From contig JAFGRO010000002.1 of the NCBI GenBank assembly GCA_016935095.1, forward strand, positions 3,306-67,305: 64,000 bases of DNA, in the 5' to 3' direction. Positions 9,218 through 32,534 of this stretch are shown here, piece after piece. Under the pieces are notes generated by a model. The model was given only the letters and a program-made list of their open reading frames with translations. It was not told where the DNA came from and searched no databases. The translations under genes were made by a program, and so were the position numbers. This stretch comes from Candidatus Woesearchaeota archaeon (GTDB lineage Archaea > Nanobdellota > Nanobdellia > Woesearchaeales > GW2011-AR15). Each line of letters begins with the position of its first letter. Within the stretch, counting starts at the first letter, position 1.

Positions 9218-9228
9218 TTATTCCACTC

Positions 9229-11582: not shown

Positions 11583-11592
11583 TTTTTCACCT

Positions 11593-13026: not shown

Positions 13027-13721
13027 TTTATCTCCATTAATTTTTCAGCTATCTTCCAGTCAATAGGCTCATCAATATCTATAGAACTGATCTTATCCAT
13101 AGGAAAGGGGAATACCCTTTTTCCATAGCCATAATTACCTGATTTAAAAATTACATCTGATGTGTAAATATAAATAGCCCCGTTTATTTCATAGGTTTCT
13201 TCTTCATCCTGTGTTCTTAAGACATTAAAATCATTCTCAAAAAGAAATCTTACTTGATTTTTCTCTTTTTTTAAAATCCACTGCGGACCAAGATGTCTCT
13301 TTGTCACAGAAAACAATGTGTCTGCATTATTGTCAGCAAATATTTTTATTGCAGAATCAATATGCTCGGCTTTTCTTAATGGAGATGTTGGTTGCAGCAG
13401 GACAACAATATCCGGAATATATTTCTCATTTGCATTCAGATAATTTAAAACATGCTTTAATACATCAATTGATTTAGACGTATCTTCTGCAAGTTCTTTT
13501 GGTCTGTCGATAATCTCCGCTTTGTATAGCAATGCACTGGCTTTTATTTCAGGGTCTTCAGTAGATACTATTGTCCTGTCAATATATTTTGAGTTTAGGG
13601 ATTGCTCAATAGAATAAGCAATTAACGGCCTGCCTTTTAATAATCTAATATTTTTTTTTTTAATTCTTTTAGAGCCGCCTCTGGCAGGAATTATTGAGAT
13701 AATCTTTCTCTTACCATACAT
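13023..13721 (-). CDS. Acylneuraminate cytidylyltransferase family (CMP-nonulosonate synthetase), copy 2
   Basis: IISIIPARGGSKRIKKKNIRLLKGRPLIAYSIEQS is a CTP_transf_3 signature. 4-nt overlap with the downstream gene. Confidence 0.85.
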   Translation of the reverse strand: MYGKRKIISIIPARGGSKRIKKKNIRLLKGRPLIAYSIEQSLNSKYIDRTIVSTEDPEIKASALLYKAEIIDRPKELAEDTSKSIDVLKHVLNYLNANEKYIPDIVVLLQPTSPLRKAEHIDSAIKIFADNNADTLFSVTKRHLGPQWILKKEKNQVRFLFENDFNVLRTQDEEETYEINGAIYIYTSDVIFKSGNYGYGKRVFPFPMDKISSIDIDEPIDWKIAEKLMEIK

Positions 13722-14220
13722 AAGGATCTACCCTGTCTTTATCATCATATTCCTTCAGTTTAAGCAGGTCATATGTTTCGAATTTGTATGCTACAGTTGT
13801 AAGTGATTCAGACCACTCGCTGATAAGATTGCTGTTCTTCTTTTTAATCTCGTCACTTACCCTTGCCAAATCCTCATGGTTTTTGGCAATTATGACAAGT
13901 GTGAAATCATATTCACCTGAGATTGAAAATACTTCTGCAATTCGCGGGTGTTTTACTACAAATTCTATGAATGATTGTACTTTTTTATGGTCATAGTTGT
14001 GCAACTTTACTTTTATGTCTACAATATAGGGATATCCAAGAATCCTTGGTCTCAGCTGGATTTTCGGGTTAAAAATCTTTTCTTTTCTCATCTTTTCAAT
14101 TCTTTTTTTTACTGAGTCAACAGAAAGCCCGACCTTTTTAGCTATGTCAGTCAGTGACATCCTGCAGTCTTCCTGAAGCAGATTCAGAATAAGACAGTTT
14201 TTTTTGTCTAAATCAACCAT
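13711..14220 (-). CDS. lrp: Lrp/AsnC-family transcriptional regulator (HTH plus RAM domain), first gene of the 14-kb operon
   Basis: N-terminal HTH LLQEDCRMSLTDIAKKVGLSVDSVKKRIEKM. C-terminal RAM/AsnC_trans_reg-like domain. 169 aa is typical for archaeal Lrp. Confidence 0.85.
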   Translation of the reverse strand: MVDLDKKNCLILNLLQEDCRMSLTDIAKKVGLSVDSVKKRIEKMRKEKIFNPKIQLRPRILGYPYIVDIKVKLHNYDHKKVQSFIEFVVKHPRIAEVFSISGEYDFTLVIIAKNHEDLARVSDEIKKKNSNLISEWSESLTTVAYKFETYDLLKLKEYDDKDRVDPYVW

Positions 14221-14507: not shown

Positions 14508-15953
14508 ATGTTCACAAAAAAAAACAAAGTATTGTTTATAATTCATGATGTATACCAGGAAGATAATCAGTTTCCATTAGGTCCAGGTTATCTTGCTGCT
14601 GTTCTTAATGATAAAGGAGCTTATGTTGAATCATACTGTATGGATATATTTCATTATACCCATGAGCAGCTGGCAGAGCATTTGCAGAAAAACGAGTATG
14701 ATTTAATATGTCTGGGCTTTTTAGCTGCCAGGTTCAAGGAAACAGTTCTTGATTTAAGCAGAGTTATTAATCAGAATAAGAAAAATGCATGGCTTGTTTT
14801 AGGTGGTCACGGTCCCTCTCCGATTCCTGAATATGTGCTAAAAACCACACAGGCAGATGTTATTGCTATAGGCGAGGCAGAAAACACTATTGTTGAATTA
14901 TTAAAATGCAAAATATCAGATGGTGATTTATCAGAAGTGCATGGCATTGCTTACCCTGAAAATAATGAAATAAGAATAACGCAAAAAAATAATATTGTTA
15001 AAAATCTGGACAACATCCCTTTTCCCTTGTGGGATATATTTCCAATGGCTAAATATACTACTTGTTTACAATTATTTAATCAGGAGTCAAATGAAAAAAG
15101 TTTTGTATTCCTCACGAGCAGGGGCTGTGTAAACAGGTGTAATTTCTGCTACAGGCTTGAAAAAGGGCTGAGATTAAGAAGTATATCAAATATTATTGAA
15201 GAATTCAGACAATTATATGACAGATATGGTTTGAATTGTTATTTTTTCATGGATGAATTATTTGTATTAAATAAAAAACGGTTATTGGAATTTGAAAAAG
15301 CACTTAAAGATGCAAATCTGAAAATAAAATTCTCCTGCAATGCAAGAGTTGACATTATGGATGAAGAAATGGTGAGGATTCTTAAAAGATGCGGCTGCCA
15401 ATTTATAAATTTCGGTTTTGAATCAAGCGATGATAATGTGCTTAAACTCATGAATAAAAATGCGACTGTTGAACAAAATATAAGGACGCTTGAGGTTGTT
15501 AAGAAGGTAGGAGGAATAGGGATGGGTCTTAATTTTCTCTGGAATAATTTAGGTGATAGCGAAAGAACCCTGAAGCAGAATGTTGCATTAATAAAGAGAT
15601 ACAACACATATGACCAATGCCGTACAATCAGACCTGTTACGCCTTATCCCGGATCTGATTTATATTATAAATTGATTGAGCTAGGGAAACTAAAAGGTCC
15701 TGAAGATTTTTTTAACAGGTTTATAAATTCAGATTTAATTTTAGTTAACCTTATGGATATGCCAGATAAAGAAGCATATCAGCATTTGTTAAAAGCAAAC
15801 ACAGAGCTTATTCTTGACCATTATAAGCATACCCAAGGAGATATGGAAAAGGCAAATGCGCTTATCCGGAAATTCAAAGACTTGTATGAGGGCAGGATAA
15901 CTAATTTTCGTGGTGCCAGGCATTATAACAAAAACGAGCAACAGAGTAAATAG
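14508..15953 (+). CDS. Cobalamin-binding (B12) radical SAM protein, class B radical-SAM family
   Basis: N-terminal B12-binding-like Rossmann domain (KVLFIIHDVYQ...LGPGYLAAVL...DLICLG). Radical-SAM cluster motif RGCVNRCNFCY (CxxxCxxC). Confidence 0.85.
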   Translation: MFTKKNKVLFIIHDVYQEDNQFPLGPGYLAAVLNDKGAYVESYCMDIFHYTHEQLAEHLQKNEYDLICLGFLAARFKETVLDLSRVINQNKKNAWLVLGGHGPSPIPEYVLKTTQADVIAIGEAENTIVELLKCKISDGDLSEVHGIAYPENNEIRITQKNNIVKNLDNIPFPLWDIFPMAKYTTCLQLFNQESNEKSFVFLTSRGCVNRCNFCYRLEKGLRLRSISNIIEEFRQLYDRYGLNCYFFMDELFVLNKKRLLEFEKALKDANLKIKFSCNARVDIMDEEMVRILKRCGCQFINFGFESSDDNVLKLMNKNATVEQNIRTLEVVKKVGGIGMGLNFLWNNLGDSERTLKQNVALIKRYNTYDQCRTIRPVTPYPGSDLYYKLIELGKLKGPEDFFNRFINSDLILVNLMDMPDKEAYQHLLKANTELILDHYKHTQGDMEKANALIRKFKDLYEGRITNFRGARHYNKNEQQSK

Positions 15954-15984: not shown

Positions 15985-17610
15985 TCAGGTTCCGGCAATT
16001 CTGTAAATCTCTTTTACAATATTTTCTGTCCCGTTAAAAGGCTGATATAAATATTTTTCAATCTCTCTCCGGTTTTTATTAAGGACTTTTGTGAGTTTAT
16101 TTTTATTATTCACAATCCTGGCTACCTTTGAAAAATCATCTTTTATTCCCTGTTTTATAATGGTTTCTAGTTCATTGTATTCATAACCGCCGATTTGCTC
16201 ATATCCCGGAACAACAAAATAAACAACCAGTTTGTTCATCAGGATTGTATCAATCATACAGGTTGATCCGAAAGAAATGCAGAACAGGCTGTTCTTTATT
16301 AAATTGTGCAGTATTTTCTGGTTATTGTGATCACTTTTAGACCTTATTATCTCAATATCCATATCTTTGAATCTGTTCTTGAAGTTGTAATATGAATTAA
16401 TCAGCTTTTCAGCCGGGTGCAGTTTAATTTTAACCTTATTAAATCCTCTGTTTTTGAGGTTTTTCAGTATGGTCTCAATAATGGATGAATATTGCTTTTT
16501 GCTAAAATAATTATCTTCAACAACAGGCTGGGTAAATAAGAGAACATATTGTCCTGAAATATCCTGATTCTGCTGTATCTCAAATTTAAGATCTTCAAAT
16601 AAATTAGTTCCTGTTGCAATTATTCGTTTTAAAGCTTCCTTGTTTTGGTATTTGGCAATAATCTTTCTTTGGGGTTTTCCGAATGTAAAATAATATTGCT
16701 TTTCCAAAAGATAAAGATACTCCAATTCAAATAATGGTCCGTGCTGGATTATAACAGAAGGAATATTTCCTGTATGTGCAGCGGCATGCGCACATTCATC
16801 TAAAAGGCCCCAGGTAGAAAATATCAGCTTGATCTTCCTTTGCTTTATGATTTTTTCAAATGTATAATAATATAAAAAGACAATACTTAACCACTCTTCT
16901 GAAAACAGGAAATTAAATTCTTCTTCAATATAGGGATAGAATGATTTGTTTTTGAGAGCAAGTATCTTTTTTATTTTATTTTTACTGAGCCTTTTCCATT
17001 TGAAATTATACTCCCTGGCTTTACGCAGGGATTTTTTAAACAGGGTATCATCAAAAAAATCTTCTGCCCTTAGAAAATCCATGCTTGGCTTAATATTTGA
17101 GAAATATGATAAGGGTTGTATCGAAACTAAATTGCATTCAAATTTATTATCTTTTTTTATTTTTTCAATGATGCTGCTCAGCCTGTAGGCAGTTACTTTG
17201 TCATTTATTGTCCGGATCTGGTCTGCATATGTCTGGAACAATATCCCTTCTCTGCTGCAATTAGTTGTCTCGGGCCTGTTCAATTTCCAGGTAAACCACC
17301 TGAAATAAAAAACAAATTTTAGATACATTAAGACAAGGCCAAATGCAATCTTCTTATTTATTTTATATAAAATGCTTCTCTTCTTATTCTTCAGGTATGC
17401 ATTAATATTGTCCTGTAAATTCCAGGATCTTATATTAAACGGCGTTCTGATTAATTTATCCTTTAGAAACCAAAATAAGGGAATTCCATTAAAATCAAGA
17501 AATTTGCCGGTTTCTATATCCTTACCTTTATATTCCGCAAATTTATAAATTAAATATCTTACCTTTTCCAGAATTTCATTACTCATTTGTATGGACCTTT
17601 GATTATTCAT
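15985..17610 (-). CDS. Membrane-anchored GT-B-like glycosyltransferase-like protein, paralog of 2817..4454
   Basis: Shares with 2817..4454 its architecture and the CAHAAAHTGNIPSVIIQHGP motif, a hydrophobic helix near residue 100 (FGLVLMYLKFVFYFRWF), and a C-terminal GT-B-like segment (FCISFGSTCMIDTILMNKLVVYF). Confidence 0.5.
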   Translation of the reverse strand: MNNQRSIQMSNEILEKVRYLIYKFAEYKGKDIETGKFLDFNGIPLFWFLKDKLIRTPFNIRSWNLQDNINAYLKNKKRSILYKINKKIAFGLVLMYLKFVFYFRWFTWKLNRPETTNCSREGILFQTYADQIRTINDKVTAYRLSSIIEKIKKDNKFECNLVSIQPLSYFSNIKPSMDFLRAEDFFDDTLFKKSLRKAREYNFKWKRLSKNKIKKILALKNKSFYPYIEEEFNFLFSEEWLSIVFLYYYTFEKIIKQRKIKLIFSTWGLLDECAHAAAHTGNIPSVIIQHGPLFELEYLYLLEKQYYFTFGKPQRKIIAKYQNKEALKRIIATGTNLFEDLKFEIQQNQDISGQYVLLFTQPVVEDNYFSKKQYSSIIETILKNLKNRGFNKVKIKLHPAEKLINSYYNFKNRFKDMDIEIIRSKSDHNNQKILHNLIKNSLFCISFGSTCMIDTILMNKLVVYFVVPGYEQIGGYEYNELETIIKQGIKDDFSKVARIVNNKNKLTKVLNKNRREIEKYLYQPFNGTENIVKEIYRIAGT

Positions 17611-17664: not shown

Positions 17665-18687
17665 ATGATTAATTTAATTAAACAAAAATTTCAGTCTTTT
17701 GCAAATAATAACCTGTTATTCAAAAAAACCCTTTTCTTTTTAATAAATACCTTCCCTTTTGATAAAGTTTACGATTTTTTGTATAAAAATCAGATTAAAA
17801 AAATAGCTACAAAAATAAAAATTCCAGGTTATATCCTTATTGAGCCGTACAATGTCTGCAATGCCCGCTGCACAATTTGTCCTTATAAAAAAATGACCAG
17901 GAAAAAACAGCTCATGCAGATGAAATTGTTCAAAAAAATCATTGATGACTGTAAAAATAACAATATTAAGACAATTGATTTAACGTTTTATAATGAGGCT
18001 TTTTTAGACCCGCTTCTGTTTGAGAGGATAAAGTATGTTAAAGACAACAATCTGAGGATTTATCTTTTTTCAAATGGTTCTGTTTTAAATAAACAAAATA
18101 TTGACAGAATTCTTGAGATGGAAGTAGATGATATCAGTTTCAGCCTTGATGGTGCAGCTAAAAAAACATATGAAAAAATCAGAAAAGGCCTGAATTATGA
18201 TACAGTTAAGGAGAATATTCTGAATTTAATAAAAGAAAGAGATAAGAGGAAACTCAAGAAACCAAGAATCGAGCTGAATTATGTAATCACAAATGAGAAT
18301 TTAGCTGAAATTGAAAAATTTAAGGGACAATGGAAAAATCTTGCTGATAATATAAGGTTTAGTGTTGTTGACACCCGGGAACAGGAAAACAAGCTTCCGA
18401 AAAAATATAAAGTAAAAAAATCAAAAAAGCCATGGCCATGCACGAGAATCTGGGAAGCAATGCAGGTAATGAGCAATGGAAAAGTAGTGATGTGCTGTGT
18501 TGATTATGATGGTGAAGTTATTGTAGGTGATTTAAATAAACAGACCATTAAGGAAATATGGGACAGTGATAAATTTAAAAGATTAAGATTGCTGCATTTA
18601 AAAAATAAAGCAGATAAAATCCCCCTATGCAGGAAATGTTCCTGGCTTTACAGGCACAACAGGGTTAACTGGTGGTTTTTTAATTAA
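17665..18687 (+). CDS. Radical SAM protein with C-terminal SPASM/twitch-type auxiliary Cys cluster
   Basis: CNARCTICPY (CxxxCxxC) near the N-terminus. C-terminal cysteines WPCTRIW...MCCVDYDG...CRKCSW fit a SPASM auxiliary 4Fe-4S domain. Confidence 0.8.
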   Translation: MINLIKQKFQSFANNNLLFKKTLFFLINTFPFDKVYDFLYKNQIKKIATKIKIPGYILIEPYNVCNARCTICPYKKMTRKKQLMQMKLFKKIIDDCKNNNIKTIDLTFYNEAFLDPLLFERIKYVKDNNLRIYLFSNGSVLNKQNIDRILEMEVDDISFSLDGAAKKTYEKIRKGLNYDTVKENILNLIKERDKRKLKKPRIELNYVITNENLAEIEKFKGQWKNLADNIRFSVVDTREQENKLPKKYKVKKSKKPWPCTRIWEAMQVMSNGKVVMCCVDYDGEVIVGDLNKQTIKEIWDSDKFKRLRLLHLKNKADKIPLCRKCSWLYRHNRVNWWFFN

Positions 18688-20542
18688 ATTTTTTATAGTT
18701 CTCTTTTTTAATATAAATCTTATACCACAATCCGAAACTCAATAATGTGTTTAACTGATAGCGGTAGTCTTCTCTCTTATTCAGATGCTCATTAAATAAT
18801 TTGCTGACTGATTTTAAATTTAATAATGGTTTTAATTCCCTGTCAAAAATAATCTCTTCTGTGAATTCTCTTAATTCTTTTCTGAACCATTCGCCTGTAG
18901 GAAGATTAAACCCGTGTTTTTTCCTGTAAATAATCTCTTTAGGCAGTCTGTCTTTCATTGCAAGCTTTAAAATATGCTTTGTTTCAAAGCCGTTTACCTT
19001 GTGTTTAACAGGAATACCGGCTGCCAGTTCTGTAATATTATGATCAAGAAAAGGGACTCTGGCTTCGAGGGAATTCATCATGCTCATCTTGTCAACCTTA
19101 AACAGGGCATCATCAGGCAGCCATGTTTTTATCTCTGTATAGAGATTTTTATTCAGTTCAGCGTAGTTTTTGATTTTGGGATTATATCTGTCTAAAATAT
19201 TTTTTTCAGAACCAATATAATCTTTTAATTTATATGAATAAATCTTTTTTTTTAAGTCATTATCAATAAACATATTCCAGGAAAGGCTTCTTAAAGCATC
19301 ATTGTTAATAGAGTAATTCTTCAGGGCTCTTAATTCATTACCTGTTTTGTTTAGAAAATTCTTACTTAAATTTAGAATTGAATTTTTAATAACTCCGGGC
19401 AGTTTGCTATAAAATCTTCCATGATGCTGGAATAAAGCCTGCCTATACCCTATAAAGGATTCATCACCACCATCACCTGATAGTGCAACCGTAACTTTTT
19501 TTCTTGCAAACTCGCTGACCATGTGCGTTGGAATACATGCAAAATCCCCAAAAGGCTCATCCAGATGCCATGTGATTTTTGGCAATAGCTCCCTGATATG
19601 ATTGAAATCCATAATAATTTCATGATGATCAGTTTCATATCTCTCAGAAATTTTCCTTGCAAAAGGCAATTCATTATAAGAAGCTTCTTCAAAACCAACT
19701 GAAAATGTTTGTACAGGCTCTTGAGAAAATTTAGACATTGTGGCAACAACCGCACTTGAATCAATTCCCCCGCTTAAAAAAGCTCCTATCGGCACATCAG
19801 AAATTAATCTTCGCTTCACAGATAAATCCAGTTCATGCTGAATCTTTTTTACAAAATAGTCTTTTGATTTTTTTAGTGGGTTATAGTTTAAATCATACCA
19901 TTGTTTTATTATTAATTTATTATTTTTTAGTTTTAGAAAATGGCCAGGCTGGAGCTTGTAAATGTTTTTAAACAGGGTCTTTGGCCCCAGAGAGAATTTG
20001 TATGTAAAATAATTATTTAATGCTTCTAAATCAATTTCCCTATTGATACCTGTTTCAAGAATAGCCTTGATCTCAGATGCAAATATGAATTTAGTTTTGT
20101 CCCAATAATAATATAATGGTTTTATACCATACCTGTCCCTTGCAATAAACAATTCTTTTTTGTCATCATCCCATATAGCAATTGCAAACATGCCGTTTAA
20201 TAAATCAAGGCACTTTTCCTGTAGCTCTTCATATAGATGAAGAATCACTTCTGTATCTGTTCTAGAAATGAACTTATGCTTTTTTTTAAGTGCAGCTTTC
20301 AGTTCATTATAGTTGTATGTTTCACCATTATAATTTATCCATAGATTACCTTCTTCATTGCACATCGGCTGGTTGCCTTTAACAGAAGTATCAATTATAG
20401 CGAGTCTTCTCTGTCCAAAAGAAACACCTTTTGATGTATAATAGCCTGCAGCATCAGGCCCGCGGTGCTTTAAAATATTTGTGCATTTTCTGATTAATTT
20501 TTGATCTTCCCAGTTAAAGCCGATAATGCCGCACATAATCAT
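18680..20542 (-). CDS. Asparagine synthetase B-family glutamine-dependent amidotransferase (AsnB/WbpS-like)
   Basis: N-terminal MCGIIGF carries the Ntn catalytic Cys2. PP-loop SGGIDSS. Length 620 aa. Confidence 0.9.
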   Translation of the reverse strand: MIMCGIIGFNWEDQKLIRKCTNILKHRGPDAAGYYTSKGVSFGQRRLAIIDTSVKGNQPMCNEEGNLWINYNGETYNYNELKAALKKKHKFISRTDTEVILHLYEELQEKCLDLLNGMFAIAIWDDDKKELFIARDRYGIKPLYYYWDKTKFIFASEIKAILETGINREIDLEALNNYFTYKFSLGPKTLFKNIYKLQPGHFLKLKNNKLIIKQWYDLNYNPLKKSKDYFVKKIQHELDLSVKRRLISDVPIGAFLSGGIDSSAVVATMSKFSQEPVQTFSVGFEEASYNELPFARKISERYETDHHEIIMDFNHIRELLPKITWHLDEPFGDFACIPTHMVSEFARKKVTVALSGDGGDESFIGYRQALFQHHGRFYSKLPGVIKNSILNLSKNFLNKTGNELRALKNYSINNDALRSLSWNMFIDNDLKKKIYSYKLKDYIGSEKNILDRYNPKIKNYAELNKNLYTEIKTWLPDDALFKVDKMSMMNSLEARVPFLDHNITELAAGIPVKHKVNGFETKHILKLAMKDRLPKEIIYRKKHGFNLPTGEWFRKELREFTEEIIFDRELKPLLNLKSVSKLFNEHLNKREDYRYQLNTLLSFGLWYKIYIKKENYKKFN

Positions 20543-20620
20543 ATAAAAAATGAGATTGTTTAATAAGATTTTGAATTATAAACGATAAATTTATTAAGAT
20601 TTTAAAAAACAGAAAATTAG

Positions 20621-21685
20621 ATGAAAAAGAAACTATTGAAATATCTTGTTTGTCCTCTCTGCAAAGAAAAACTTTCTTTGACTATTTTTAAGAAAAAGTC
20701 AGAGATTCAGGACGGACTTCTAACTTGTGCAAACCAGCACTGGTATCCAGTAATCAACGGAATCCCGAGAATATTAAATGATTCTCTTAAAGAGCAGATA
20801 TTGTTTTCAAAAAACATGGACTTTTTTAATAAATATAAATCAAGAATTCCCGGAATCTCCAAAACAAAAGAAAACTTCCTGAGGGATAAATCAGAAACAG
20901 CAAAGATTTTCGGATATGAATGGAAAGAATTTCCAGAGCTTCATAAAATCTATGAATCTCAATTTAAAGAATGGCTTTATCCTATAAAAAAAGGATTCTT
21001 CAGGGGAAAATTTATCCTTGATGCTGGATGCGGCACTGGAAGGCATATTTACTATTCCAGGAAGTATGGCGCTAAGGAAATAATAGGTATAGATTTAAGT
21101 GAAGCTGTTGAAGTTGCATATATTAACAACAAAAAAAATAATGTCCATATTATCCAGGCAGATATTTATAATCTCCCTTTTAAAAAAGACATATTTGACT
21201 TTATTTATTCAATAGGTGTACTGCACCATCTTCCGGATCCAAAAAAAGGGTTTTTAAGTTTGTTGAAATTCGGTAAAAAAGGAAGTACAATTGCTATATG
21301 GGTTTACGGGCAACCCACAAAACTATTGAAATATATAATTGACCCGTTGCGAAAACATGTTATTACCAAGCTGCCTACACCCATGATAAAAACACTTGCT
21401 TTTTTTAATACACTTATTGTGTTTTCACTTGCGAAATTCATTTACATGCCATTAAATAAATTAACAGATAAGGCTAAATATTTGCCATTGAATTTTACAT
21501 TCAATTATTTTTCAAAATTCAATTTCAGGATTATTTTTTCAATGATGTATGATATAATTTCACCTCCTCACCAGGTATACCTGAAAAAAGAAGATATTAA
21601 TGACTGGTTCCATAGAACGGAATTAGAAAAAGTTAAGATTTCCAGAATGAAACACAGCTGGGGAGCAAACGGAATAATAAAATGA
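20621..21685 (+). CDS. SAM-dependent methyltransferase with N-terminal Trm112-like zinc-ribbon
   Basis: LLKYLVCPLCKEKLS...LTCANQHWYPVINGIPRIL gives a Trm112-type ribbon. The later ILDAGCGTGRH is class I methyltransferase motif I. Confidence 0.75.
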   Translation: MKKKLLKYLVCPLCKEKLSLTIFKKKSEIQDGLLTCANQHWYPVINGIPRILNDSLKEQILFSKNMDFFNKYKSRIPGISKTKENFLRDKSETAKIFGYEWKEFPELHKIYESQFKEWLYPIKKGFFRGKFILDAGCGTGRHIYYSRKYGAKEIIGIDLSEAVEVAYINNKKNNVHIIQADIYNLPFKKDIFDFIYSIGVLHHLPDPKKGFLSLLKFGKKGSTIAIWVYGQPTKLLKYIIDPLRKHVITKLPTPMIKTLAFFNTLIVFSLAKFIYMPLNKLTDKAKYLPLNFTFNYFSKFNFRIIFSMMYDIISPPHQVYLKKEDINDWFHRTELEKVKISRMKHSWGANGIIK

Positions 21686-22578
21686 AAGTTTCAGCAGTTG
21701 TATGTCCGCTAAACCAGGAAAAATTCATTAAAAGATGCATAGATTCAATACTGCCGCAGGTAGATGAAGTAATAGTAGTTGATGCAAGTTCAGATGACAG
21801 GACCCTTGAAATAATAGATAAGAGATATAAAAAAAACAGTAACATTTCAGTTTATATAATCCCAAGAAAAGAGCCTCTTGCATATGCAAGGAATTACGGC
21901 GCCAAGAGGGCAAAGCACGAACTTATTTTATTTGCGGACAGCGACATTATCCTGAATAAAAACTGGATAAATATAGCAAAAAAAACATTAATTAAAGAGA
22001 ATCTTGCAAGTGTTGGCGGCAGGACAAGGGTTGAAGGCAATACATTTAATAAAAGATTTTTAAGGATTCTTAGGGATAAAGAAACATTTGACAGCTGTCC
22101 TTATCCGAGCAGGGTTATATTGATGAGGAAAGGTATATTTAATGAACTTAACGGATTTAATGTGAAGAACAAAATGGGTGAGGACGAAGAGCTCTATAAA
22201 AGAGTCCTGAAAAAAGGGTATAAATCAAGGAATATATTGACAATCTATGAGACACATCTTGGAGAGCCTGATTCTTTTTCAAGGGTTTTGAAAAGGCAGG
22301 CAAAATACGGCAGGTTCTCTTATCTTGAAAGAAACCCGGCATATAGTCTTTCAAATATACTTTTATCATTGCTGATGATATCTCCTCTAAGCATATTATA
22401 TTCACTAAGGCTTTATTATTATATCTTTAAAAATAAGCTAGAGGGAACAAAGAATATTTTATTTCTCTTTATACTGCCTTTAATGAGCTATTTATTTTAT
22501 GCTGTTTATTTTTATAATAATCTGGTTGCCATGATAACAAAAAACAGGAATGTGAAATGGCATGAGCTGAAGTGGTAG
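21682..22578 (+). CDS. Family 2 glycosyltransferase (GT-A) with C-terminal membrane helices
   Basis: VVCPLNQEKFIKRCIDSILPQ...VIVVDASSDD...DSD resemble GT2 DxD-type motifs. Hydrophobic C-terminus. 4-nt overlap with the upstream methyltransferase. Confidence 0.8.
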   Translation: MKVSAVVCPLNQEKFIKRCIDSILPQVDEVIVVDASSDDRTLEIIDKRYKKNSNISVYIIPRKEPLAYARNYGAKRAKHELILFADSDIILNKNWINIAKKTLIKENLASVGGRTRVEGNTFNKRFLRILRDKETFDSCPYPSRVILMRKGIFNELNGFNVKNKMGEDEELYKRVLKKGYKSRNILTIYETHLGEPDSFSRVLKRQAKYGRFSYLERNPAYSLSNILLSLLMISPLSILYSLRLYYYIFKNKLEGTKNILFLFILPLMSYLFYAVYFYNNLVAMITKNRNVKWHELKW

Positions 22579-22652
22579 CTACTTGAAATAGATAAAAAGA
22601 ATAGGAAATAGAAAATTTAATAAATGAAATATCTTTATTTGGAAAGATTAAA

Positions 22653-23381
22653 ATGAATGATCTTTTTATCAATGAGGTTATTACAAAAAATAAATTTATT
22701 AATTATATAAATAAAATTGATGGTTTGATATCCGATATAGAGGCTGAGTTACTATTTTCTCTTGCAAAAAAGTGTAAAAACAAGGGCGTTATTGTTGAAA
22801 TAGGCTCATGGAAAGGCAAATCTACAGTATGTTTGGCGCTGGGTTCAAAAAAAGGTTCAAAAAACAAAATTTATGCTGTTGATCCACATATAATAGAAGG
22901 ATTTAATTCAACATATAATGAATTCATTACAAACATTAAGAAAGCAAAAGTAGAGGATGTAGTAATTCCTCTTGTAAAAACATCAAAAGAAGCATCAAAA
23001 AATTTCAAAGAAAAAATTGAACTGATTTTTATTGATGGAGATCATTCTTATCAAGGGGTAAGAGAGGATTTTGAACTATGGTTTCCAAAGGTTATTGATG
23101 GAGGTATTGTAGTATTTCATGATACAATTGGGCATAAAGGTCCAAAAAAATTAGTTGAAAAGGCATTGTATAAGTCAAGATTCTTTAAAAATGTACAGTT
23201 TGTAGGAAGTATCTCTTTTGGTCAAAAAGTTAAAAAAAATTCAATTATTGATAAGATAAGAAACAGATATGTTCTCTTATTAAAAGAGCTATATGAACAA
23301 ACAGGGAACTTATGTGTAAAATTAAAAGTTCCAAAGTCAATTTATTTAATTGGAAGAAAGATTGTGAAGATATTTCAATAA
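22653..23381 (+). CDS. Class I SAM-dependent methyltransferase (TylF/CmcI/O-methyltransferase family 3-like)
   Basis: GVIVEIGSWKGKSTVCLA is motif I. IFIDGDHSYQGVREDF is typical of the CmcI/MycF-type sugar O-methyltransferase fold. Confidence 0.7.
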   Translation: MNDLFINEVITKNKFINYINKIDGLISDIEAELLFSLAKKCKNKGVIVEIGSWKGKSTVCLALGSKKGSKNKIYAVDPHIIEGFNSTYNEFITNIKKAKVEDVVIPLVKTSKEASKNFKEKIELIFIDGDHSYQGVREDFELWFPKVIDGGIVVFHDTIGHKGPKKLVEKALYKSRFFKNVQFVGSISFGQKVKKNSIIDKIRNRYVLLLKELYEQTGNLCVKLKVPKSIYLIGRKIVKIFQ

Positions 23382-23416: not shown

Positions 23417-24067
23417 TTATCTTTTTTTAAACTCTTCCCAGTTGTCCAGAAATTCCTGGATTGTGCTCTCTGTTCTCGGGTTCCAGGGCAGTTTCATTAA
23501 AATAGGAGTTGGTATTGTTAGAATATGAGCTCCGCTAAGCATTGCCCTGTTTATATGCGAAACCTGCCTGAAGCTTCCCAAGATGATTTCTGATTTGATT
23601 TTATGCCTTTCAAAAATCTCAACAGTTTCACAAACAATTTGTTCGGCATTATAGCCCATATCCTCTATCCTTGCCCAGAATAAGCTCACGAATGTGGCAC
23701 CTGCTTTTGCCGCTAAAACCGCCTGCTTTGTACACATGCATGCAGTAACATTGGTTTTTATGCCTTCTTTATTAAGTATGTTCACTGCTTTGAGGCCTGT
23801 AATCCCCATTGGAATTTTTACATTAACGTTATTACCCCATTTTGCAAATTTCCTGGACTGTCTAATCATTTCATCTAAATCATTTGAAGTAACCTCAATG
23901 CTTATCGGTCCTTTCACAATCTCAATAATCTCTTTCATTCTGGTTTCAAAATCAATGCCTTTTTCTTTTGATACAATGCTGGGATTAGTTGTACAGCCGT
24001 CAATAATACCCCAGCTTAAAAGTTCTTTTAATTCATCCAGATTTGCAGTGTCTGCAAATATTTTCAT
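23417..24067 (-). CDS. tal: Transaldolase / fructose-6-phosphate aldolase family (short archaeal-type Tal/FSA)
   Basis: MKIFADTANLDELKEL..GIIDGCTTNPSIV is the Tal/FSA N-terminal signature. 216 aa. Confidence 0.85.
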   Translation of the reverse strand: MKIFADTANLDELKELLSWGIIDGCTTNPSIVSKEKGIDFETRMKEIIEIVKGPISIEVTSNDLDEMIRQSRKFAKWGNNVNVKIPMGITGLKAVNILNKEGIKTNVTACMCTKQAVLAAKAGATFVSLFWARIEDMGYNAEQIVCETVEIFERHKIKSEIILGSFRQVSHINRAMLSGAHILTIPTPILMKLPWNPRTESTIQEFLDNWEEFKKR

Positions 24068-24131
24068 TTTAAATCACCCTTTTTATTATATATATTTAAA
24101 ATGAAAACTACGAACATGAGTGAGTTTGTTT

Positions 24132-24692
24132 TCATTTTTTTCCCTCCAGCTTTTTAATGATAGTTACAGCATCTTTAAGATTTTTTGCAAAATAATCAGG
24201 GTTAATCTTTTTTTCATGCATTATTTTACACAGGGCGCATTTTAATTCGGATAACATAATTGTGGTTTTGCATACTTTTCCAGCTTCAATATCTGACAAT
24301 AAATCTCCTATCATATATGATTCTTTTAAATCAATGTTGTGTTCTTTAGCAGCTCTCAGCAGCATTCCTGATTTTGGTTTTCTGCATTCACATTCTCCAG
24401 TATATTTCGGATGATGAATGCAATTGTAAATAAAATTGATTCCAAGCTCGCTTTTCATATATTCATCAATTTTTTCTAAATCCTGTTTTTTAATATAGCC
24501 AAATGCAACCCCCGGCTGGTTTGAGACTACAATTATTTTGAATCCTACTCTTTTAATTTCAGCAATTGCTTCTTTTACATCCTGCAGGATTATAAACTCA
24601 TCAAGGTTTTTTGCACTGTATATTCCTTTGTCATCATGATACATCAATTTATTAATTACACCGTCCCTGTCCAGAAAAACAGCTTTATTCAT
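24132..24692 (-). CDS. gmhB: HAD-superfamily D,D-heptose 1,7-bisphosphate phosphatase (GmhB-like)
   Basis: VFLDRDGVIN is HAD motif I of the HisB/GmhB subfamily. Cys-rich insert (CECRKP). 4-nt overlap with upstream gmhA. Confidence 0.75.
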   Translation of the reverse strand: MNKAVFLDRDGVINKLMYHDDKGIYSAKNLDEFIILQDVKEAIAEIKRVGFKIIVVSNQPGVAFGYIKKQDLEKIDEYMKSELGINFIYNCIHHPKYTGECECRKPKSGMLLRAAKEHNIDLKESYMIGDLLSDIEAGKVCKTTIMLSELKCALCKIMHEKKINPDYFAKNLKDAVTIIKKLEGKK

Positions 24693-25290
24693 TGTAATTT
24701 TGTATGAGTTCTTTTAACCTGAAAATTATTAAGTGTTGCAATACAACATGGAATGCCTCAACATGAGGTGTTGCATTAAACGGCACAACAACACATGCAT
24801 CGCAGATCTGTTTCATAGCACCGCCGTCAAACCCTGAAAACCCTATTGTTGTGCCTTTATTATCAATTACATACTGGTAAGCTTTTGTCAGGTTTTGGGA
24901 CCAATTGCCTGCGTTTCCTTTTCCAGAGCCTCCGTGAACACTAAATCCTATGAGTATATCTCCTTTTTCAAACAGGTTTTCTAATTGGCCAAGATACAGG
25001 TTTTCCCATCCCTCATCATTAACCCATGCGCTCATCAAAGGAATATTATCATTAAGACAGATTGCTTTGAACCTTTTCCTGCCTTTAGTCATTGTTGTTT
25101 TTGCAAGGTCAGCAGTGAAATGCGTTGCAGTGGAGGCTGATCCGCCGTTTCCCATTAGAAAAATCTGTTTTCCCTGTTTCCATGCATTGAACAGTAGTTC
25201 AATTACTTTGTTTATATCTTCTTTATTAACTTCATCTATGATTGTTTTACATTCTTTGAAAAAAGTATTTATGTATTCTTTGTGCACCAT
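24685..25290 (-). CDS. gmhA: Phosphoheptose (sedoheptulose-7-phosphate) isomerase, SIS domain (GmhA)
   Basis: QIFLMGNGGSASTATHFTADLAK is the canonical GmhA SIS-domain motif. Confidence 0.85.
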   Translation of the reverse strand: MVHKEYINTFFKECKTIIDEVNKEDINKVIELLFNAWKQGKQIFLMGNGGSASTATHFTADLAKTTMTKGRKRFKAICLNDNIPLMSAWVNDEGWENLYLGQLENLFEKGDILIGFSVHGGSGKGNAGNWSQNLTKAYQYVIDNKGTTIGFSGFDGGAMKQICDACVVVPFNATPHVEAFHVVLQHLIIFRLKELIQNYNE

Positions 25291-25301
25291 TTTTTTCAGC
25301 C

Positions 25302-26288
25302 TTACCTTGAATTGAATATTATCTTTGTGCCGTCAAAGTCAAATCTAAACGGCATTTCAATTAGATCTTTGCTTATCATAAACTCCCTAAATTTTTTTTG
25401 ATGCTGGTTTTCAACATAAAACATAAAAAAACCACCGCCTCCTGCGCCAATAATTTTACCTCCGATAGCTCCGTTTTTTAGTGCTGAGTTATACCACTCA
25501 TCTATTTCAGGGGTTGTCATTTTATTTGTAAATGTTTTTTTAGTATCCCAGTGAATCTTAAGCCATTCCCCAAATCTTCTTGGATTATCTTTTTCAAGTG
25601 CTTTTTTGATTTCATAGCCAATCTCTTTTGTCCTTGTTAAGTATTGCATTTTTTGTTCATCTTTTTCAGCTTCACTTTTTTGTTCTGATAAAACTTCACT
25701 TGCACTTCTTGTTATTCCTGTATAAAACAAAAGAATATTGTTTTCAAGCTCTCTTATTGTATCAAAGCTTAGATTCAAAGGAGTAACCAGCACATTCCCT
25801 TTTTGGTTGATGTTCAGGTTAATGATCCCTCCAAAAGCAGCAGCATACTGGTCTTGTTTGCCGACTGGCTCTTTAAGAACATCCATTTCAAGGTAGCATG
25901 CTTCCTCTGCGAGAGTCTTTTTTGAGACATATTCTCCTTTATATACATGAAGTGCATGAAGCAACCCGACTGTAAATGAACTTGAGCTTCCGAGACCTGC
26001 TTTTGAACTAACATCTCCAATAGAAGTAATTTCAAGATTATCATGTATCTTTAAAAATTTCAGTGCCTCTTTAACAATAGGGTGTTCTATTTCATTATTA
26101 TTATTAACAATTTCAGTCTTTGAATAACTGACACGGGTCCCTTTATGGAATCTTTTGTTAACAGAGATATACATGTATTTATCAATTGCAGCGGTTACTA
26201 AAGAGCCTTTATGTTTCTTGTAATAAAAAGGCAAATCAGTTCCCCCGCCTCCAATAGAAATCCTAAACGGTGTTTTTGATATAATCAT
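25302..26288 (-). CDS. hddA: GHMP-family sugar kinase, D-glycero-alpha-D-manno-heptose-7-phosphate kinase-like (HddA)
   Basis: GHMP ATP-binding loop (PVGKQDQ..., GLGSSSS). Glycine-rich ISIGGGGTD. Position within the gmh/hdd operon. Confidence 0.8.
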   Translation of the reverse strand: MIISKTPFRISIGGGGTDLPFYYKKHKGSLVTAAIDKYMYISVNKRFHKGTRVSYSKTEIVNNNNEIEHPIVKEALKFLKIHDNLEITSIGDVSSKAGLGSSSSFTVGLLHALHVYKGEYVSKKTLAEEACYLEMDVLKEPVGKQDQYAAAFGGIINLNINQKGNVLVTPLNLSFDTIRELENNILLFYTGITRSASEVLSEQKSEAEKDEQKMQYLTRTKEIGYEIKKALEKDNPRRFGEWLKIHWDTKKTFTNKMTTPEIDEWYNSALKNGAIGGKIIGAGGGGFFMFYVENQHQKKFREFMISKDLIEMPFRFDFDGTKIIFNSR

Positions 26289-26362
26289 CCCAAGATATAA
26301 ACAAAAATAACCGCTATATAAAGCTTTCGCCGAAAAATTTATAAAGAGAAAATCTCATAAAT

Positions 26363-27103
26363 CTAATTTGTATTTAATCCTGAGTGTTTTATCTCTTCCT
26401 CAAACTCTTTTATCCTTTCTATCTTGCCAAGCTCTTTCCAGAATCCTTTTACAGGGAAACCCATTAGTTTTTTGTTTTGTTTTAGCAACAAAGGGAATAG
26501 ATCATATGCAAAATCAAATTTCCTGTTTTCAGGAATATAATCTAAAACATCTTTATTAATAACATATATCCCGGAATTAACCCAGTTTTTTTTTCCCTGT
26601 TTTAGAAAACCCTCTAAAAATTCTGGAGAGGGCCTTTCAATAAATTCAATAATCTGAAAATCAGGCTTTACATTAATTAAACTTGAGCCAATTTTGTCTT
26701 TTATTCTCATTAAAATTGTTGCTGCTGAATTATTTGCATTATGAAACTCAAGCATATCCTTAAAAGTTAAATCGGATATAATGTCTCCGTATAAAACTCC
26801 GAAAGTATCTTCAATCAAATCAGGATTAATATTTTTAACAGCACCTGCTGTCCCAAGTAATTCTTTTTCCTGGCTGTAAGTTAAATTAACACCAAGTTCT
26901 TTCCCTTCTTTAAAATAATCTTTGATTCTTTCTGATAAGTGGCCTACACATAAAATAATATCTGTAATGCCTTGTTTTTTCAATAACTGTAATTGATACC
27001 AAAGAAGCGGCTTTTCATTGACCTCAATCATTGATTTTGGCATCTTTTCTGTTAAAGGATGCATCCTTGTTGCCAGACCGCCGCAGATAATAACAACTTG
27101 CAT
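26363..27103 (-). CDS. hddC: Sugar-phosphate nucleotidyltransferase, D-glycero-alpha-D-manno-heptose-1-phosphate guanylyltransferase-like (HddC)
   Basis: MQVVIICGGLATRMHPLTEKMPKSMIEV is the NTP_transferase G-x-G-x-R signature. Operon context. Confidence 0.8.
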   Translation of the reverse strand: MQVVIICGGLATRMHPLTEKMPKSMIEVNEKPLLWYQLQLLKKQGITDIILCVGHLSERIKDYFKEGKELGVNLTYSQEKELLGTAGAVKNINPDLIEDTFGVLYGDIISDLTFKDMLEFHNANNSAATILMRIKDKIGSSLINVKPDFQIIEFIERPSPEFLEGFLKQGKKNWVNSGIYVINKDVLDYIPENRKFDFAYDLFPLLLKQNKKLMGFPVKGFWKELGKIERIKEFEEEIKHSGLNTN

Positions 27104-27104
27104 T

Positions 27105-28040: not shown

Positions 28041-28387
28041 ATTATAATTCTTCTACAATGTAAATATTAGATTTCTATAAATTGGGAATATATTTAAATA
28101 TTGTGAAACCTTTTTTAAGATTAAATGGGACTAAAATTAGAAAAATCCTGTTAAATCAATGTCTACTTGTGTTTTTTCTTCTCTTTTCAGCAACATTTGT
28201 CACATATGATAGCATAGCTACACGTGTGCAATATCAGATTTTTTACAATTAAAAAAAGAAAGTCCTTTTGTTAAACAATCTGTTTTTATGCTCTCATTTA
28301 TATTTGCACAGATGCTTGTTACAAATACAGTTATACGGGCTTTCTTTTTAACCTGACTTGTTATAATTACACGGGCATTGTACTGTG

Positions 28388-32531: not shown

Positions 32532-32534
32532 CTG

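What the first reader, a model, noticed from the sequence alone, without database searches (positions are those of the whole stretch)
17665..21685. SPASM radical-SAM, AsnB-type amidotransferase and Trm112-ribbon methyltransferase tailoring module
A SPASM/twitch radical-SAM (often a peptide or sugar maturase, or a sugar epimerase/dehydratase) is immediately followed by a 620-aa asparagine-synthetase-family enzyme on the opposite strand, then a Zn-ribbon methyltransferase co-transcribed with a GT2. AsnB paralogs in O-antigen loci (WbpS-type) amidate uronic acids or attach amino acids. Together the module predicts an amidated or amino-acid-decorated, radical-modified sugar. No precursor-peptide-like small ORF is evident, so a RiPP explanation is less likely than glycan tailoring.
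Basis: partly seen in the sequence, partly recalled or inferred. Interest (0 to 1): 0.55.

Follow-up and report, generated by a model that had tools for sequence, protein, structure and literature searches.

The report
Archaeal surface-sugar tailoring genes
These genes belong to a large sugar-coat gene island of an uncultured Woesearchaeota archaeon and hold two separate sugar-decorating units, an amide-forming enzyme paired with a methylase and a radical enzyme resembling BtrN; this is interesting to specialists but not a new kind of system.

Summary
In detail: all four ORFs exist at the stated coordinates. The AsnB start is better placed at 20536.

The window matches a Candidatus Woesearchaeota (DPANN) contig. 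Positions 1-49 kb form one glycan island, with two nonulosonic-acid pathways, an NDP-heptose pathway, many glycosyltransferases and three B12 radical-SAM genes.

The RiPP reading is rejected. There is no precursor ORF, peptidase or exporter.

The proposed "module" is two evolutionarily independent units:

1. **AsnB plus Trm112-ribbon methyltransferase.** This is a conserved pair. AsnB lies directly beside the methyltransferase in 14 of about 50 informative metagenome loci, usually as ArnC-like GT2, then AsnB, then MT. AsnB has an intact glutaminase site and PP-loop. Every context examined was a glycan cluster, as for WbpS. It most likely makes a methylated sugar carboxamide, not an amino-acid adduct.

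2. **The radical-SAM enzyme.** It is a single-auxiliary-cluster Twitch enzyme, not a full SPASM. BtrN is its closest solved structure. The family is large (5,277 clusters at E<=1e-30) and uncharacterised. In 80 loci it co-occurs with B12 radical-SAM genes (36) but rarely with AsnB (3) and never with the MT (0).

Substrates remain inferred.

The parts
14508..15953 (+). B12-binding radical-SAM enzyme (481 aa). It lies outside the finding but is the likely functional partner of the Twitch rSAM.
   Evidence: Pfam B12-binding plus Radical_SAM. B12-rSAM homologues occur within the flanks of 36/80 Twitch-rSAM loci, and within 1 kb in 23. They occur in only 4/80 control (MT) loci.
15985..17610 (-). 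541-aa protein, a putative nonulosonic-acid (NulO) transferase. It is a paralogue of 2817-4454.
   Evidence: No Pfam, NCBIfam or PDB sequence hit. It is 24% identical (E 8e-38) to 2817-4454, which sits by the second NeuB/CMP-transferase set. It is 28% identical over its full length to the L088 protein that carries a weak polysialyltransferase hit and sits between AsnB and the CMP-NulO synthetase.
17665..18687 (+). Twitch-type (BtrN-like) radical-SAM enzyme, 340 aa. It has the CX3CX2C motif at C65/C69/C72 and a single four-Cys auxiliary cluster at C259, C277, C322 and C325.
   Evidence: The only PDB sequence hit is BtrN. The Foldseek top hit is BtrN 4M7T (E 3.7e-15, TMt 0.75), followed by BlsE. 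The model has pLDDT 90.7.
18680..20536 (-). Glutamine-dependent AsnB-family amidotransferase, WbpS-like, 618 aa counted from Met3.
   Evidence: Pfam and NCBIfam. MCGIIG N-terminus, conserved R/N-G-E/D glutaminase residues and the SGGIDSS PP-loop. Orthologues and homologues all lie in glycan clusters. It is adjacent to the Trm112-MT in 14 metagenome loci and in L092.
20537..20620 (.). AT-rich divergent intergenic region between AsnB and the methyltransferase operon. It contains no ORF.
   Evidence: Sequence read directly and ORF list. TATA-like stretches were read by eye only. The bacterial promoter scan was uninformative.
20621..21685 (+). Class-I SAM methyltransferase with a fused N-terminal Trm112-like zinc ribbon (C11, C14, C36) and a conserved C-terminal domain of about 110 aa.
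   Evidence: Residues 1-55 hit A. fulgidus Trm112 (6ZXW_H, E 2.8e-6). The family has 2,447 hits, conserved over the full length.
21682..22578 (+). GT2 glycosyltransferase with two predicted C-terminal membrane helices. It is translationally coupled to the MT.
   Evidence: Pfam. Hydrophobic segments at 221-242 and 257-278. Homologues of 38-39% identity lie near the AsnB orthologues in L087 and L088.
22653..23381 (+). Methyltransf_24 (CmcI/TylF-like) methyltransferase, the last gene of the + strand run.
   Evidence: Pfam PF13578 E 6.7e-26, with weak RMNT_CmcI and TylF hits.

Best explanation
The region is part of a roughly 48-kb surface-glycan biosynthesis island of a Woesearchaeota (DPANN) archaeon. 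It contains two independent tailoring units rather than one module.

Unit B covers 18680-23381: AsnB, the Trm112-ribbon MT, a membrane-anchored GT2 and a second MT.
- AsnB hydrolyses glutamine at its Cys2 site. It adenylates a sugar carboxylate at its PP-loop site and converts it to a primary carboxamide, as WbpS, WbqG and PGN_1234 do for uronic acids.
- The adjacent Trm112-ribbon methyltransferase then methylates the same residue.
- The GT2 with C-terminal membrane helices installs the sugar or carries it on a polyprenyl (dolichyl) phosphate. A GT-C enzyme of the island would then transfer it.

Unit A is the Twitch rSAM at 17665-18687, with the B12-rSAM at 14508-15953.
- This BtrN-like enzyme abstracts a hydrogen atom from a sugar carbon.
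- With its single auxiliary [4Fe-4S] cluster as electron acceptor, it most likely oxidises a secondary alcohol to a ketone. A related epimerisation or decarboxylation is also possible.
- It works alongside a cobalamin-dependent rSAM, probably a C-methylase.

What is shown: domain content, catalytic motifs, fold, genomic associations and the absence of RiPP features.

What is inferred: the substrates (uronic acid versus nonulosonic acid), the site of methylation, the lipid-linked route and the rSAM chemistry.
For: Context:
- The island holds two NeuB/CMP-transferase sets, WbuX plus a HisF-HisH fusion, a formyltransferase and DegT.
- It also holds a GmhA/GmhB/kinase/NTP-transferase heptose set, many GTs, PMT_2 and three B12-rSAMs.
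- Proteins are 100% identical to NCBI Woesearchaeota entries.

AsnB:
- MCGIIG start, conserved glutaminase residues and the SGGIDSS loop.
- The best NCBIfam model is TIGR03108 eps_aminotran_1 at 534 bits, against AsnB NF006949 at 337 bits, which is below its 499 cutoff. WbpS and WbqG are members of eps_aminotran_1 and make uronamides (PMC7468200).
- The closest solved relative is the hydroxyamidotransferase 7YLZ (E 1e-58), ahead of ASNS/AsnB at 1e-44.
- DPANN orthologues of 65-71% identity (L087-L089) and 46-47% homologues (L173, L174) all sit in glycan clusters. L088 is syntenic with the window's NulO cassette. L174 has a WbpB/E/D-like trio.

AsnB-MT pair:
- AsnB is present in 17/80 MT-family metagenome loci. 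It is directly adjacent in 14. Of those, 13 have it upstream and co-directional, and one (L123) is divergent as in the window.
- About 50 loci have enough upstream DNA to judge.
- The Acidobacteria MAG locus L092 reads SDR | ArnC-like GT2 - AsnB - Trm112-MT.
- GT-C/PMT_2 or 10-12-TM proteins flank several cassettes.
- Precedent: the T. forsythia O-glycan cluster has asnB plus Mtf genes and a methylated ManNAcCONH2 residue (PMC6120980).

rSAM:
- Four-Cys Twitch pattern.
- BtrN is the only PDB sequence hit and the best fold hit, with the glucuronate decarboxylase BlsE third.
- Neighbours of 40 homologues: rSAM 17 (of which B12 11), GT2 15, MT about 15, GT1/4 11, Wzx 5.
- B12-rSAM is present in 36/80 loci, against 4/80 in the MT-locus control.
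Against: - No enzyme of either unit has a characterised orthologue. AsnB is below the TIGR03108 cutoff (534 vs 817) and passes the broad asn_synth_AEB model.
- No UDP-sugar 6-dehydrogenase, which would supply a uronic acid, was found anywhere in 1-50 kb. The carboxylate may therefore be something else, or the gene lies elsewhere in the genome.
- The acidic SGxGxDE pocket that binds aspartate's amino group in ASNS is retained as SGDGGDE. Aspartate use is not excluded by motifs.
- The window's GT2 (21682) is not the ArnC-like type found in the bacterial cassettes. The ArnC-like GT2 sits 25 kb away at 45147-46085.
- Fold hits of the MT are generic, with TM 0.3-0.4.
- Fold E-values for the rSAM differ by only about 3-4 orders of magnitude between BtrN and the peptide-modifying SPASM enzymes.
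- The co-occurrence counts rest on tblastn with crude thresholds and on MAG or metagenome fragments.
Confidence: 0.6

Rival explanations
1. One integrated module. The rSAM, AsnB and MT act in sequence on the same sugar, giving a radical-modified, amidated and methylated residue.
For: The genes are physically contiguous, and rSAM and AsnB overlap at their 3' ends. AsnB homologues in L173 and L174 lie directly beside B12-rSAM genes, so rSAM chemistry and AsnB do meet in glycan clusters. L042 and L043 carry both AsnB and the Twitch rSAM within 6 kb.
Against: AsnB occurs in only 3/80 Twitch-rSAM loci, and the Trm112-MT in none. The Twitch rSAM occurs in 0/80 MT loci. The syntenic locus L088 has AsnB, an MT and the NulO-transferase-like gene without either rSAM. 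The rSAM is on the opposite strand and monocistronic.
Confidence: 0.15
2. The carboxylate amidated by AsnB belongs to a nonulosonic acid, either its C1 carboxyl or a carboxylated N-acyl group, rather than to a hexuronic acid.
For: In three of four DPANN loci (window, L087, L088), AsnB sits next to NeuB, the CMP-NulO synthetase and the putative NulO transferase. No UDP-sugar 6-dehydrogenase is present in the window.
Against: I found no precedent for NulO carboxamides in the papers read. All demonstrated or proposed AsnB-type sugar amidations concern uronic acids. L089, L174 and the bacterial cassettes lack NulO genes.
Confidence: 0.2
3. AsnB is the organism's housekeeping asparagine synthetase and happens to lie in the island.
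For: It passes the broad TIGR01536 asn_synth_AEB model (498 bits, cutoff 267) and keeps the acidic SGxGxDE motif. All sources name it 'asparagine synthase'.
Against: It is below the AsnB equivalog cutoff and closer to a non-Asn amidotransferase in the PDB. Every one of seven or more contexts examined is a glycan cluster. It also shows recurrent operonic linkage to an MT and a GT2.
Confidence: 0.05
4. RiPP or protein maturation. The rSAM modifies a peptide or protein, such as a sactipeptide, a peptide epimerisation target or a sulfatase formylglycine. AsnB would act as a lasso-type or macrolactam cyclase.
For: SPASM/Twitch enzymes often mature peptides. Fold hits ranked 4-24 are CteB, SuiB, anSME, SkfB and EpeE. 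One homologue (L002) follows a sulfatase gene. AsnB hits the lasso-cyclase model at 260 bits, below its 525 cutoff.
Against: The spacers and surroundings hold no small ORF. Neither the window nor the neighbour census shows a peptidase or ABC exporter. Sulfatase is not among the 25 commonest neighbour families. The intact glutaminase Cys2 is not expected of lasso cyclases (my own knowledge). The best hits are the sugar-acting BtrN and BlsE.
Confidence: 0.03

Closest known systems
WbpS / WbqG / PGN_1234 (AsnB-type uronic-acid amidotransferases; NCBIfam eps_aminotran_1)
   Same: Ntn-glutaminase plus PP-loop synthetase architecture and a length of about 620 aa. It is encoded inside a surface-glycan cluster. 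The eps_aminotran_1 model is the best-scoring NCBIfam model.
   Different: The score is below that model's cutoff. No uronic-acid (UDP-sugar 6-dehydrogenase) gene lies nearby. It is archaeal (DPANN). It is specifically paired with a Trm112-ribbon methyltransferase.
Tannerella forsythia protein O-glycosylation cluster (asnB, mtfJ/O/Y, gtf genes, pse genes)
   Same: An AsnB-like gene, several SAM methyltransferases, GTs and a nonulosonic-acid pathway share one locus. The glycan contains a methylated N-acetylmannosaminuronamide (PMC6120980).
   Different: That cluster carries wecB/wecC for the uronic acid. It has no radical-SAM enzymes and no Trm112-fused MT. The role of its AsnB was not tested there.
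BtrN (2-deoxy-scyllo-inosamine dehydrogenase, Twitch radical SAM; PDB 4M7T)
   Same: CX3CX2C motif plus one four-Cys auxiliary cluster with nearly the same spacing. It is the only PDB sequence hit and the best Foldseek hit. It acts on a carbohydrate-like small molecule.
   Different: Identity is about 17%. The window protein has a conserved three-helix N-terminal extension of about 55 aa and a CPYxKMTRKK motif. It is encoded in surface-glycan clusters rather than aminoglycoside clusters. Its usual partner is a B12-rSAM.
ArnC/ArnT and Rhizobium RgtE/RgtA-D lipid-linked single-sugar decoration pathways
   Same: The bacterial AsnB/Trm112-MT cassettes start with an ArnC-like GT2 (173-224 bits to NF007986). 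They often include a GalE-like SDR and a GT-C/PMT_2 membrane protein. The window also encodes these at 41234-46085.
   Different: The Arn and Rgt systems have no amidotransferase or methyltransferase. The comparison with Rgt rests on my own knowledge. The window's MT-coupled GT2 is a different GT2 subtype.
Trm112-methyltransferase holoenzymes (Trm9, Trm11, Mtq2, Hvo_0019)
   Same: The N-terminal 55 residues match archaeal Trm112 (6ZXW_H, E 2.8e-6; Pfam PF03966), with conserved zinc-ribbon cysteines. They are joined to a class-I MT.
   Different: The ribbon is fused in cis. The context is glycan biosynthesis, not translation. The MT domain is not of the Mtq2/HemK type, and there is an extra C-terminal domain.

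Membership tests
SPASM radical-SAM (two auxiliary [4Fe-4S] clusters) | Seven-cysteine motif CX9-15GX4C ... CX2CX5CX3C ... C that ligates two auxiliary clusters | tested here: not met
   Only C259-x12-G-x4-C277 and C322-x2-C325 are conserved across 26 homologues. Nothing follows CX2C before the C-terminus. Pfam SPASM still matches the first half.
Twitch radical-SAM (BtrN-like) | CX3CX2C radical-SAM cluster plus one auxiliary cluster ligated by four Cys in an abridged SPASM fold | tested here: met
   C65/C69/C72 are invariant. Four conserved downstream Cys have spacing x17, x44, x2, against x18, x43, x2 in BtrN (BtrN spacing from my own knowledge). BtrN is the only PDB sequence hit and the top fold hit, with TMt 0.75. 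Cluster content itself cannot be tested in silico.
Twitch radical-SAM (BtrN-like) | Dehydrogenase chemistry on a sugar or cyclitol secondary alcohol | not testable with these tools
   Inference from fold and glycan-cluster context only.
WbpS-type sugar-acid amidotransferase (eps_aminotran_1) | Ntn glutaminase Cys plus a PP-loop ATP pyrophosphatase domain | tested here: met
   MCGIIG, conserved R, N-G-E and D residues, and SGGIDSS.
WbpS-type sugar-acid amidotransferase (eps_aminotran_1) | Score above the curated cutoff of TIGR03108 | tested here: not met
   534.5 bits against an 816.9 cutoff, although it is the best-scoring model.
WbpS-type sugar-acid amidotransferase (eps_aminotran_1) | Encoded in a glycan cluster together with genes that make a uronic acid | tested here: inconclusive
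   The glycan cluster criterion is met in every locus seen. No UDP-sugar 6-dehydrogenase lies in window 1-50 kb. A WbpB/E/D-like trio is present only in L174.
WbpS-type sugar-acid amidotransferase (eps_aminotran_1) | Phylogenetic clustering with WbpS, WbqG and PGN_1234 rather than AsnB or LtsA | not tested
   The reference sequences could not be obtained.
Housekeeping asparagine synthetase B | Score above the AsnB equivalog cutoff (NF006949) | tested here: not met
   336.8 bits against a 499 cutoff. The broad TIGR01536 model is passed.
Housekeeping asparagine synthetase B | Aspartate-binding acidic pocket (human E364, D367, E368) | tested here: inconclusive
   The window protein has SGDGGDE. 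The motif is also kept in the non-Asn enzyme 7YLZ, so it does not discriminate.
RiPP biosynthetic cluster | Precursor-peptide ORF next to the maturase | tested here: not met
   No intergenic ORF of 20 aa or more in 15.9-23.4 kb. The spacers are 54 and 78 nt.
RiPP biosynthetic cluster | Leader peptidase and/or ABC exporter in the cluster | tested here: not met
   None in the window's annotated ORFs. None among the 25 commonest neighbour families of 40 homologous loci.
Trm112 family | Zinc-ribbon domain matching PF03966 / Trm112_arch | tested here: met
   PF03966 scores 26.5 bits (cutoff 22). 6ZXW_H gives E 2.8e-6. C11, C14 and C36 are invariant. NCBIfam Trm112_arch scores 46 bits, below its 77 cutoff. 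It is a fused domain, not a stand-alone activator.
Polyprenyl-phosphate glycosyltransferase (ArnC/GtrB/DPM1-like GT2) | GT2 catalytic domain followed by two C-terminal transmembrane helices, with similarity to ArnC | tested here: inconclusive
   The 21682-22578 GT2 has two hydrophobic C-terminal segments but no ArnC-level hit. The 45147-46085 GT2 and the cassette GT2s hit ArnC at 173-224 bits, below the 529 cutoff.

The most novel reading that the evidence does not exclude
Two previously undescribed and widespread glycan-tailoring systems meet here.

(a) A conserved GT2 - AsnB - Trm112-ribbon-MT cassette, shared by Acidobacteria-type bacteria and DPANN archaea. It would build a polyprenyl-phosphate-linked sugar acid, amidate it and methylate it. 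The methyl group might go on the new amide nitrogen, by analogy with Trm112-Mtq2 methylation of glutamine amides. A GT-C enzyme would then transfer the sugar to the cell surface.

(b) A family of more than 5,000 clusters of BtrN-like Twitch radical-SAM enzymes. Together with B12-dependent radical-SAM partners, they would perform radical C-H oxidation and C-methylation on surface-glycan sugars of anaerobes. This chemistry is so far known only from antibiotic pathways.
Probability: 0.3. Interest if true: 0.65.

Novelty: new variant of a known kind. Interest (0 to 1): 0.42.

Why it matters
DPANN archaea depend on contact with host cells, and their surface glycans are essentially unknown.

If the inferences hold, this island shows that these organisms invest in amidated, methylated and radical-modified sugars.

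It also points to two uncharacterised enzyme sets with wide distribution in uncultured anaerobes: the AsnB/Trm112-MT pair and the Twitch/B12 radical-SAM pair. Both are tractable targets for heterologous biochemistry.

The result also corrects a tempting over-grouping of adjacent genes into one module.

Tried and rejected
- **Aspartate-pocket motif test for AsnB.** The acidic SGxGxDE motif is conserved in the window protein, in ASNS and in the non-Asn enzyme 7YLZ, so it does not discriminate.
- **Bacterial promoter scan.** It found 28 sites against 28.5 expected. This is uninformative for an archaeon.
- **tRNA and Rfam scans.** Nothing was found in the window.
- **Locus search with the 26-sequence rSAM alignment.** It failed because the alignment was too divergent. 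I repeated it with 13 sequences.
- **Literature searches.** Searches for a Trm112/AsnB glycan cassette, for Twitch rSAMs in glycans and for the enzyme that attaches threonine to the M. maripaludis glycan gave no direct precedent.
- **Foldseek of the MT model.** It returned only generic class-I MTs at low TM. The sugar O-MT AtmM was first, by a negligible margin.
- **Counting polytopic membrane proteins near the MT and rSAM loci.** The fractions were about 35% and 31%, which does not discriminate.
- **anSME/sulfatase-maturase idea.** It was raised by L002. Sulfatase is not among the 25 commonest neighbour families.
- **Reference phylogeny of AsnB.** It could not be done. Sequences of WbpS, WbqG, LtsA and E. 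coli AsnB could not be imported.

Full report
**Observation**

ORF listing and Pfam/NCBIfam scans confirm the four genes.
- 17665-18687 (+): radical-SAM/SPASM protein of 340 aa.
- 18680-20542 (-): GATase/Asn_synthase protein. It converges on the rSAM gene with an 8-nt overlap.
- 20621-21685 (+): Trm112p-ribbon plus class-I methyltransferase.
- 21682-22578 (+): GT2, overlapping the MT stop by 4 nt.
- 22653-23381 (+): a CmcI/TylF-like Methyltransf_24 gene that follows on the same strand.

The AsnB ORF starts MIMCGIIG. NCBI's identical protein is 618 aa. The true start is therefore 20536, which gives the catalytic N-terminal cysteine.

**Source and setting**

Proteins 100% identical to the window's are filed by NCBI under Candidatus Woesearchaeota archaeon, on a 75.8-kb contig. 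GC content is about 32%. There are no tRNA or Rfam hits.

Positions 1-49 kb form one glycan island.
- Two nonulosonic-acid (NulO) sets are present: NeuB at 1683-2714 and 9229-10365, and CMP-transferases at 923-1678 and 13023-13721.
- Associated NulO genes are a 2-epimerase, DegT, a formyltransferase, the WbuX amidotransferase and a HisF-HisH fusion for acetamidino groups, plus an AsnC regulator.
- An NDP-heptose set with a transaldolase lies at 23417-28040.
- There are three B12-binding rSAMs: 14508-15953, 28388-29935 and 47431-49164.
- There are many GT2 and GT4 genes, a PMT_2 GT-C enzyme (43455-45146), an ArnC-like GT2 (45147-46085) and a PpgS-like GT2.
- No UDP-sugar 6-dehydrogenase was found.

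**RiPP test**

The two spacers are 54 and 78 nt, AT-rich and hold no ORF. Every ORF of 20 aa or more in 15.9-23.4 kb lies inside a large gene in another frame. No peptidase or ABC exporter is present. The RiPP reading is rejected.

**The radical-SAM enzyme**

Alignment of 26 homologues gives these conserved cysteines:
- C65, C69 and C72 are invariant (CX3CX2C).
- Only four cysteines are conserved downstream: C259, C277, C322 and C325.

That is one auxiliary cluster, the Twitch pattern, not the seven-Cys SPASM motif.

Evidence on its relatives:
- The only PDB sequence hit is BtrN (E 4.5e-10).
- An AlphaFold model (pLDDT 90.7) matches BtrN best (E 3.7e-15, TMt 0.75).
- The glucuronate decarboxylase BlsE follows. 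After that come the peptide-modifying enzymes CteB, SuiB, anSME, SkfB and EpeE.
- No NCBIfam model is passed.
- A profile search finds 5,277 50%-identity clusters at E<=1e-30. The family is therefore large and uncharacterised.
- Relatives in 80 genome loci are all MAGs: DPANN, CPR, Chloroflexota, Omnitrophota and others.

Pfam scans of the two genes on either side in 40 loci gave 146 proteins:

| Neighbour family | Count |
|---|---|
| Radical_SAM | 17 (11 with a B12 domain) |
| GT2 | 15 |
| Class-I MT | about 15 |
| GT1/4 | 11 |
| Wzx | 5 |

Asn_synthase and peptidase families do not appear among the 25 commonest families.

**Co-occurrence test**

I ran tblastn of all window proteins against the 80 rSAM loci and the 80 MT-family loci.

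| Query | 80 rSAM loci | 80 MT-family loci |
|---|---|---|
| B12-rSAM | 36 (23 within 1 kb) | 4 |
| AsnB | 3 | 17 |
| Trm112-MT | 0 | 80 (defining) |
| Twitch rSAM | 80 (defining) | 0 |

In the window, the Twitch gene and the B12-rSAM at 14508-15953 flank the 541-aa gene on the opposite strand. The syntenic locus L088 lacks both rSAMs. The rSAM therefore belongs with B12-rSAMs, not with AsnB.

**AsnB**

- The glutaminase residues and the SGGIDSS PP-loop are intact. Ammonia transfer to an adenylated carboxylate is therefore expected.
- The best NCBIfam model is eps_aminotran_1 (534 bits, below its cutoff). The AsnB equivalog is not reached.
- WbpS and WbqG, which make uronamides, belong to eps_aminotran_1. 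P. gingivalis PGN_1234 was shown genetically to do the same (PMC7468200).
- The closest solved relative is a hydroxyamidotransferase, ahead of ASNS and AsnB.
- The aspartate-pocket motif does not discriminate.

Genomic contexts:
- DPANN orthologues of 65-71% identity all sit in glycan clusters (L087-L089).
- L088 reproduces the window's NulO cassette gene for gene. It places AsnB, a small MT and a homologue of the 541-aa protein in a row.
- The closest non-DPANN homologues (L173, L174) are also in glycan clusters. L174 has a WbpB/E/D-like trio.

**The methyltransferase and the conserved pair**

- Residues 1-55 match archaeal Trm112 (6ZXW_H, E 2.8e-6).
- C11, C14 and C36 are invariant in a full-length-conserved family of 2,447 hits.
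- Its model has pLDDT 91.7 but gives only generic MT fold hits.

In 80 metagenome loci of this family, AsnB is present in 17 and directly adjacent in 14.
- In 13 it is upstream and co-directional. In one (L123) it is divergent, as in the window.
- About 50 loci have enough upstream DNA to judge.
- The usual order is ArnC-like GT2, then AsnB, then Trm112-MT. A GalE-like SDR, a second MT and a GT-C/PMT_2 or 10-12-TM protein are often nearby.
- The window's MT-coupled GT2 has two C-terminal hydrophobic helices.

This is a conserved unit across Bacteria and DPANN archaea.

**Mechanism proposed**

- AsnB converts a sugar carboxylate to a primary amide.
- The ribbon-MT methylates the same residue.
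- The GT2 installs the sugar or loads it on a lipid carrier.

The T. forsythia cluster is the nearest described parallel. It has asnB, Mtf genes and pse genes, and its glycan contains a methylated ManNAcCONH2 (PMC6120980).

Whether the acid is a uronic acid or a NulO is open. NulO linkage in three DPANN loci and the missing dehydrogenase argue for NulO. All known precedent argues for uronic acid.

The Twitch rSAM is inferred to oxidise or otherwise radical-modify a sugar C-H together with a B12-rSAM.

**Verdict**

- The glycan-tailoring interpretation is supported, and RiPP is rejected.
- The single-module idea is not supported.
- These are new variants of known kinds of enzyme, of moderate specialist interest.

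Noticed in passing
window 15985-17610 (-) and 2817-4454 (-): Two paralogous proteins of about 540 aa (24% identity, E 8e-38) have no Pfam, NCBIfam or PDB sequence match. Each lies beside one of the two NeuB/CMP-transferase sets. A homologue in L088 has a weak polysialyltransferase hit. They are candidates for an undescribed family of archaeal nonulosonic-acid transferases.
   Followed up: partly
window 7401-13721 (-): This NulO cassette holds a formyltransferase, a WbuX amidotransferase and a fused HisF-HisH protein (477 aa). It predicts an N-formyl and/or acetamidino nonulosonic acid. The cassette and an AsnC-type regulator (13711-14220) are conserved in L088.
   Followed up: partly
window 27105-34485 (-): A cassette of SDR, B12-rSAM, MT and 240-aa GT2 is followed by 8-TM, 3-TM and 9-TM membrane proteins. 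The same combination, with PMT_2 GT-C proteins, recurs in L002 and L087. It looks like a conserved lipid-linked sugar decoration unit that includes a cobalamin rSAM.
   Followed up: partly
window 23417-28040 (-): A complete NDP-heptose pathway is present: SIS isomerase, GHMP kinase, HAD phosphatase, nucleotidyltransferase and SDR. It is preceded by a transaldolase, presumably to supply sedoheptulose-7-phosphate. Heptose genes also accompany the Twitch rSAM in L007, L008, L026 and L049.
   Followed up: no
window 4479-6227 (-): A 582-aa fusion of CBS domains (KpsF/GutQ-like C-terminal region) with an SDR epimerase/dehydratase. This is an unusual architecture for the first step of a NulO pathway.
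   Followed up: no
window 40479-41237 (-), 34489-35361 (-), 35436-36518 (+): A lipoate-protein ligase, a UbiA prenyltransferase and a DUF362 protein lie within the glycan island. Their relation to it is unknown.
   Followed up: no
P0016, P0021; L004:1638-4464: Some Twitch-rSAM homologues are fused to an N-terminal GNAT acetyltransferase (455 aa). L004 carries two Twitch paralogues flanking a methyltransferase.
   Followed up: no
L173:6001-9400; L174:6001-9359: In the closest non-DPANN homologues of AsnB, a B12-binding rSAM gene overlaps the AsnB 3' end. It is convergent in L173 and co-directional in L174. This suggests a second recurrent association, AsnB with B12-rSAM.
   Followed up: no
window 53895-54734 (-) / 53932-54687 (+), and 54684-55535 (+) / 54764-55417 (-): Long ORFs overlap on opposite strands downstream of the island, next to thiolase and 2-oxoacid:ferredoxin oxidoreductase genes. 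I did not check which strand is coding.
   Followed up: no
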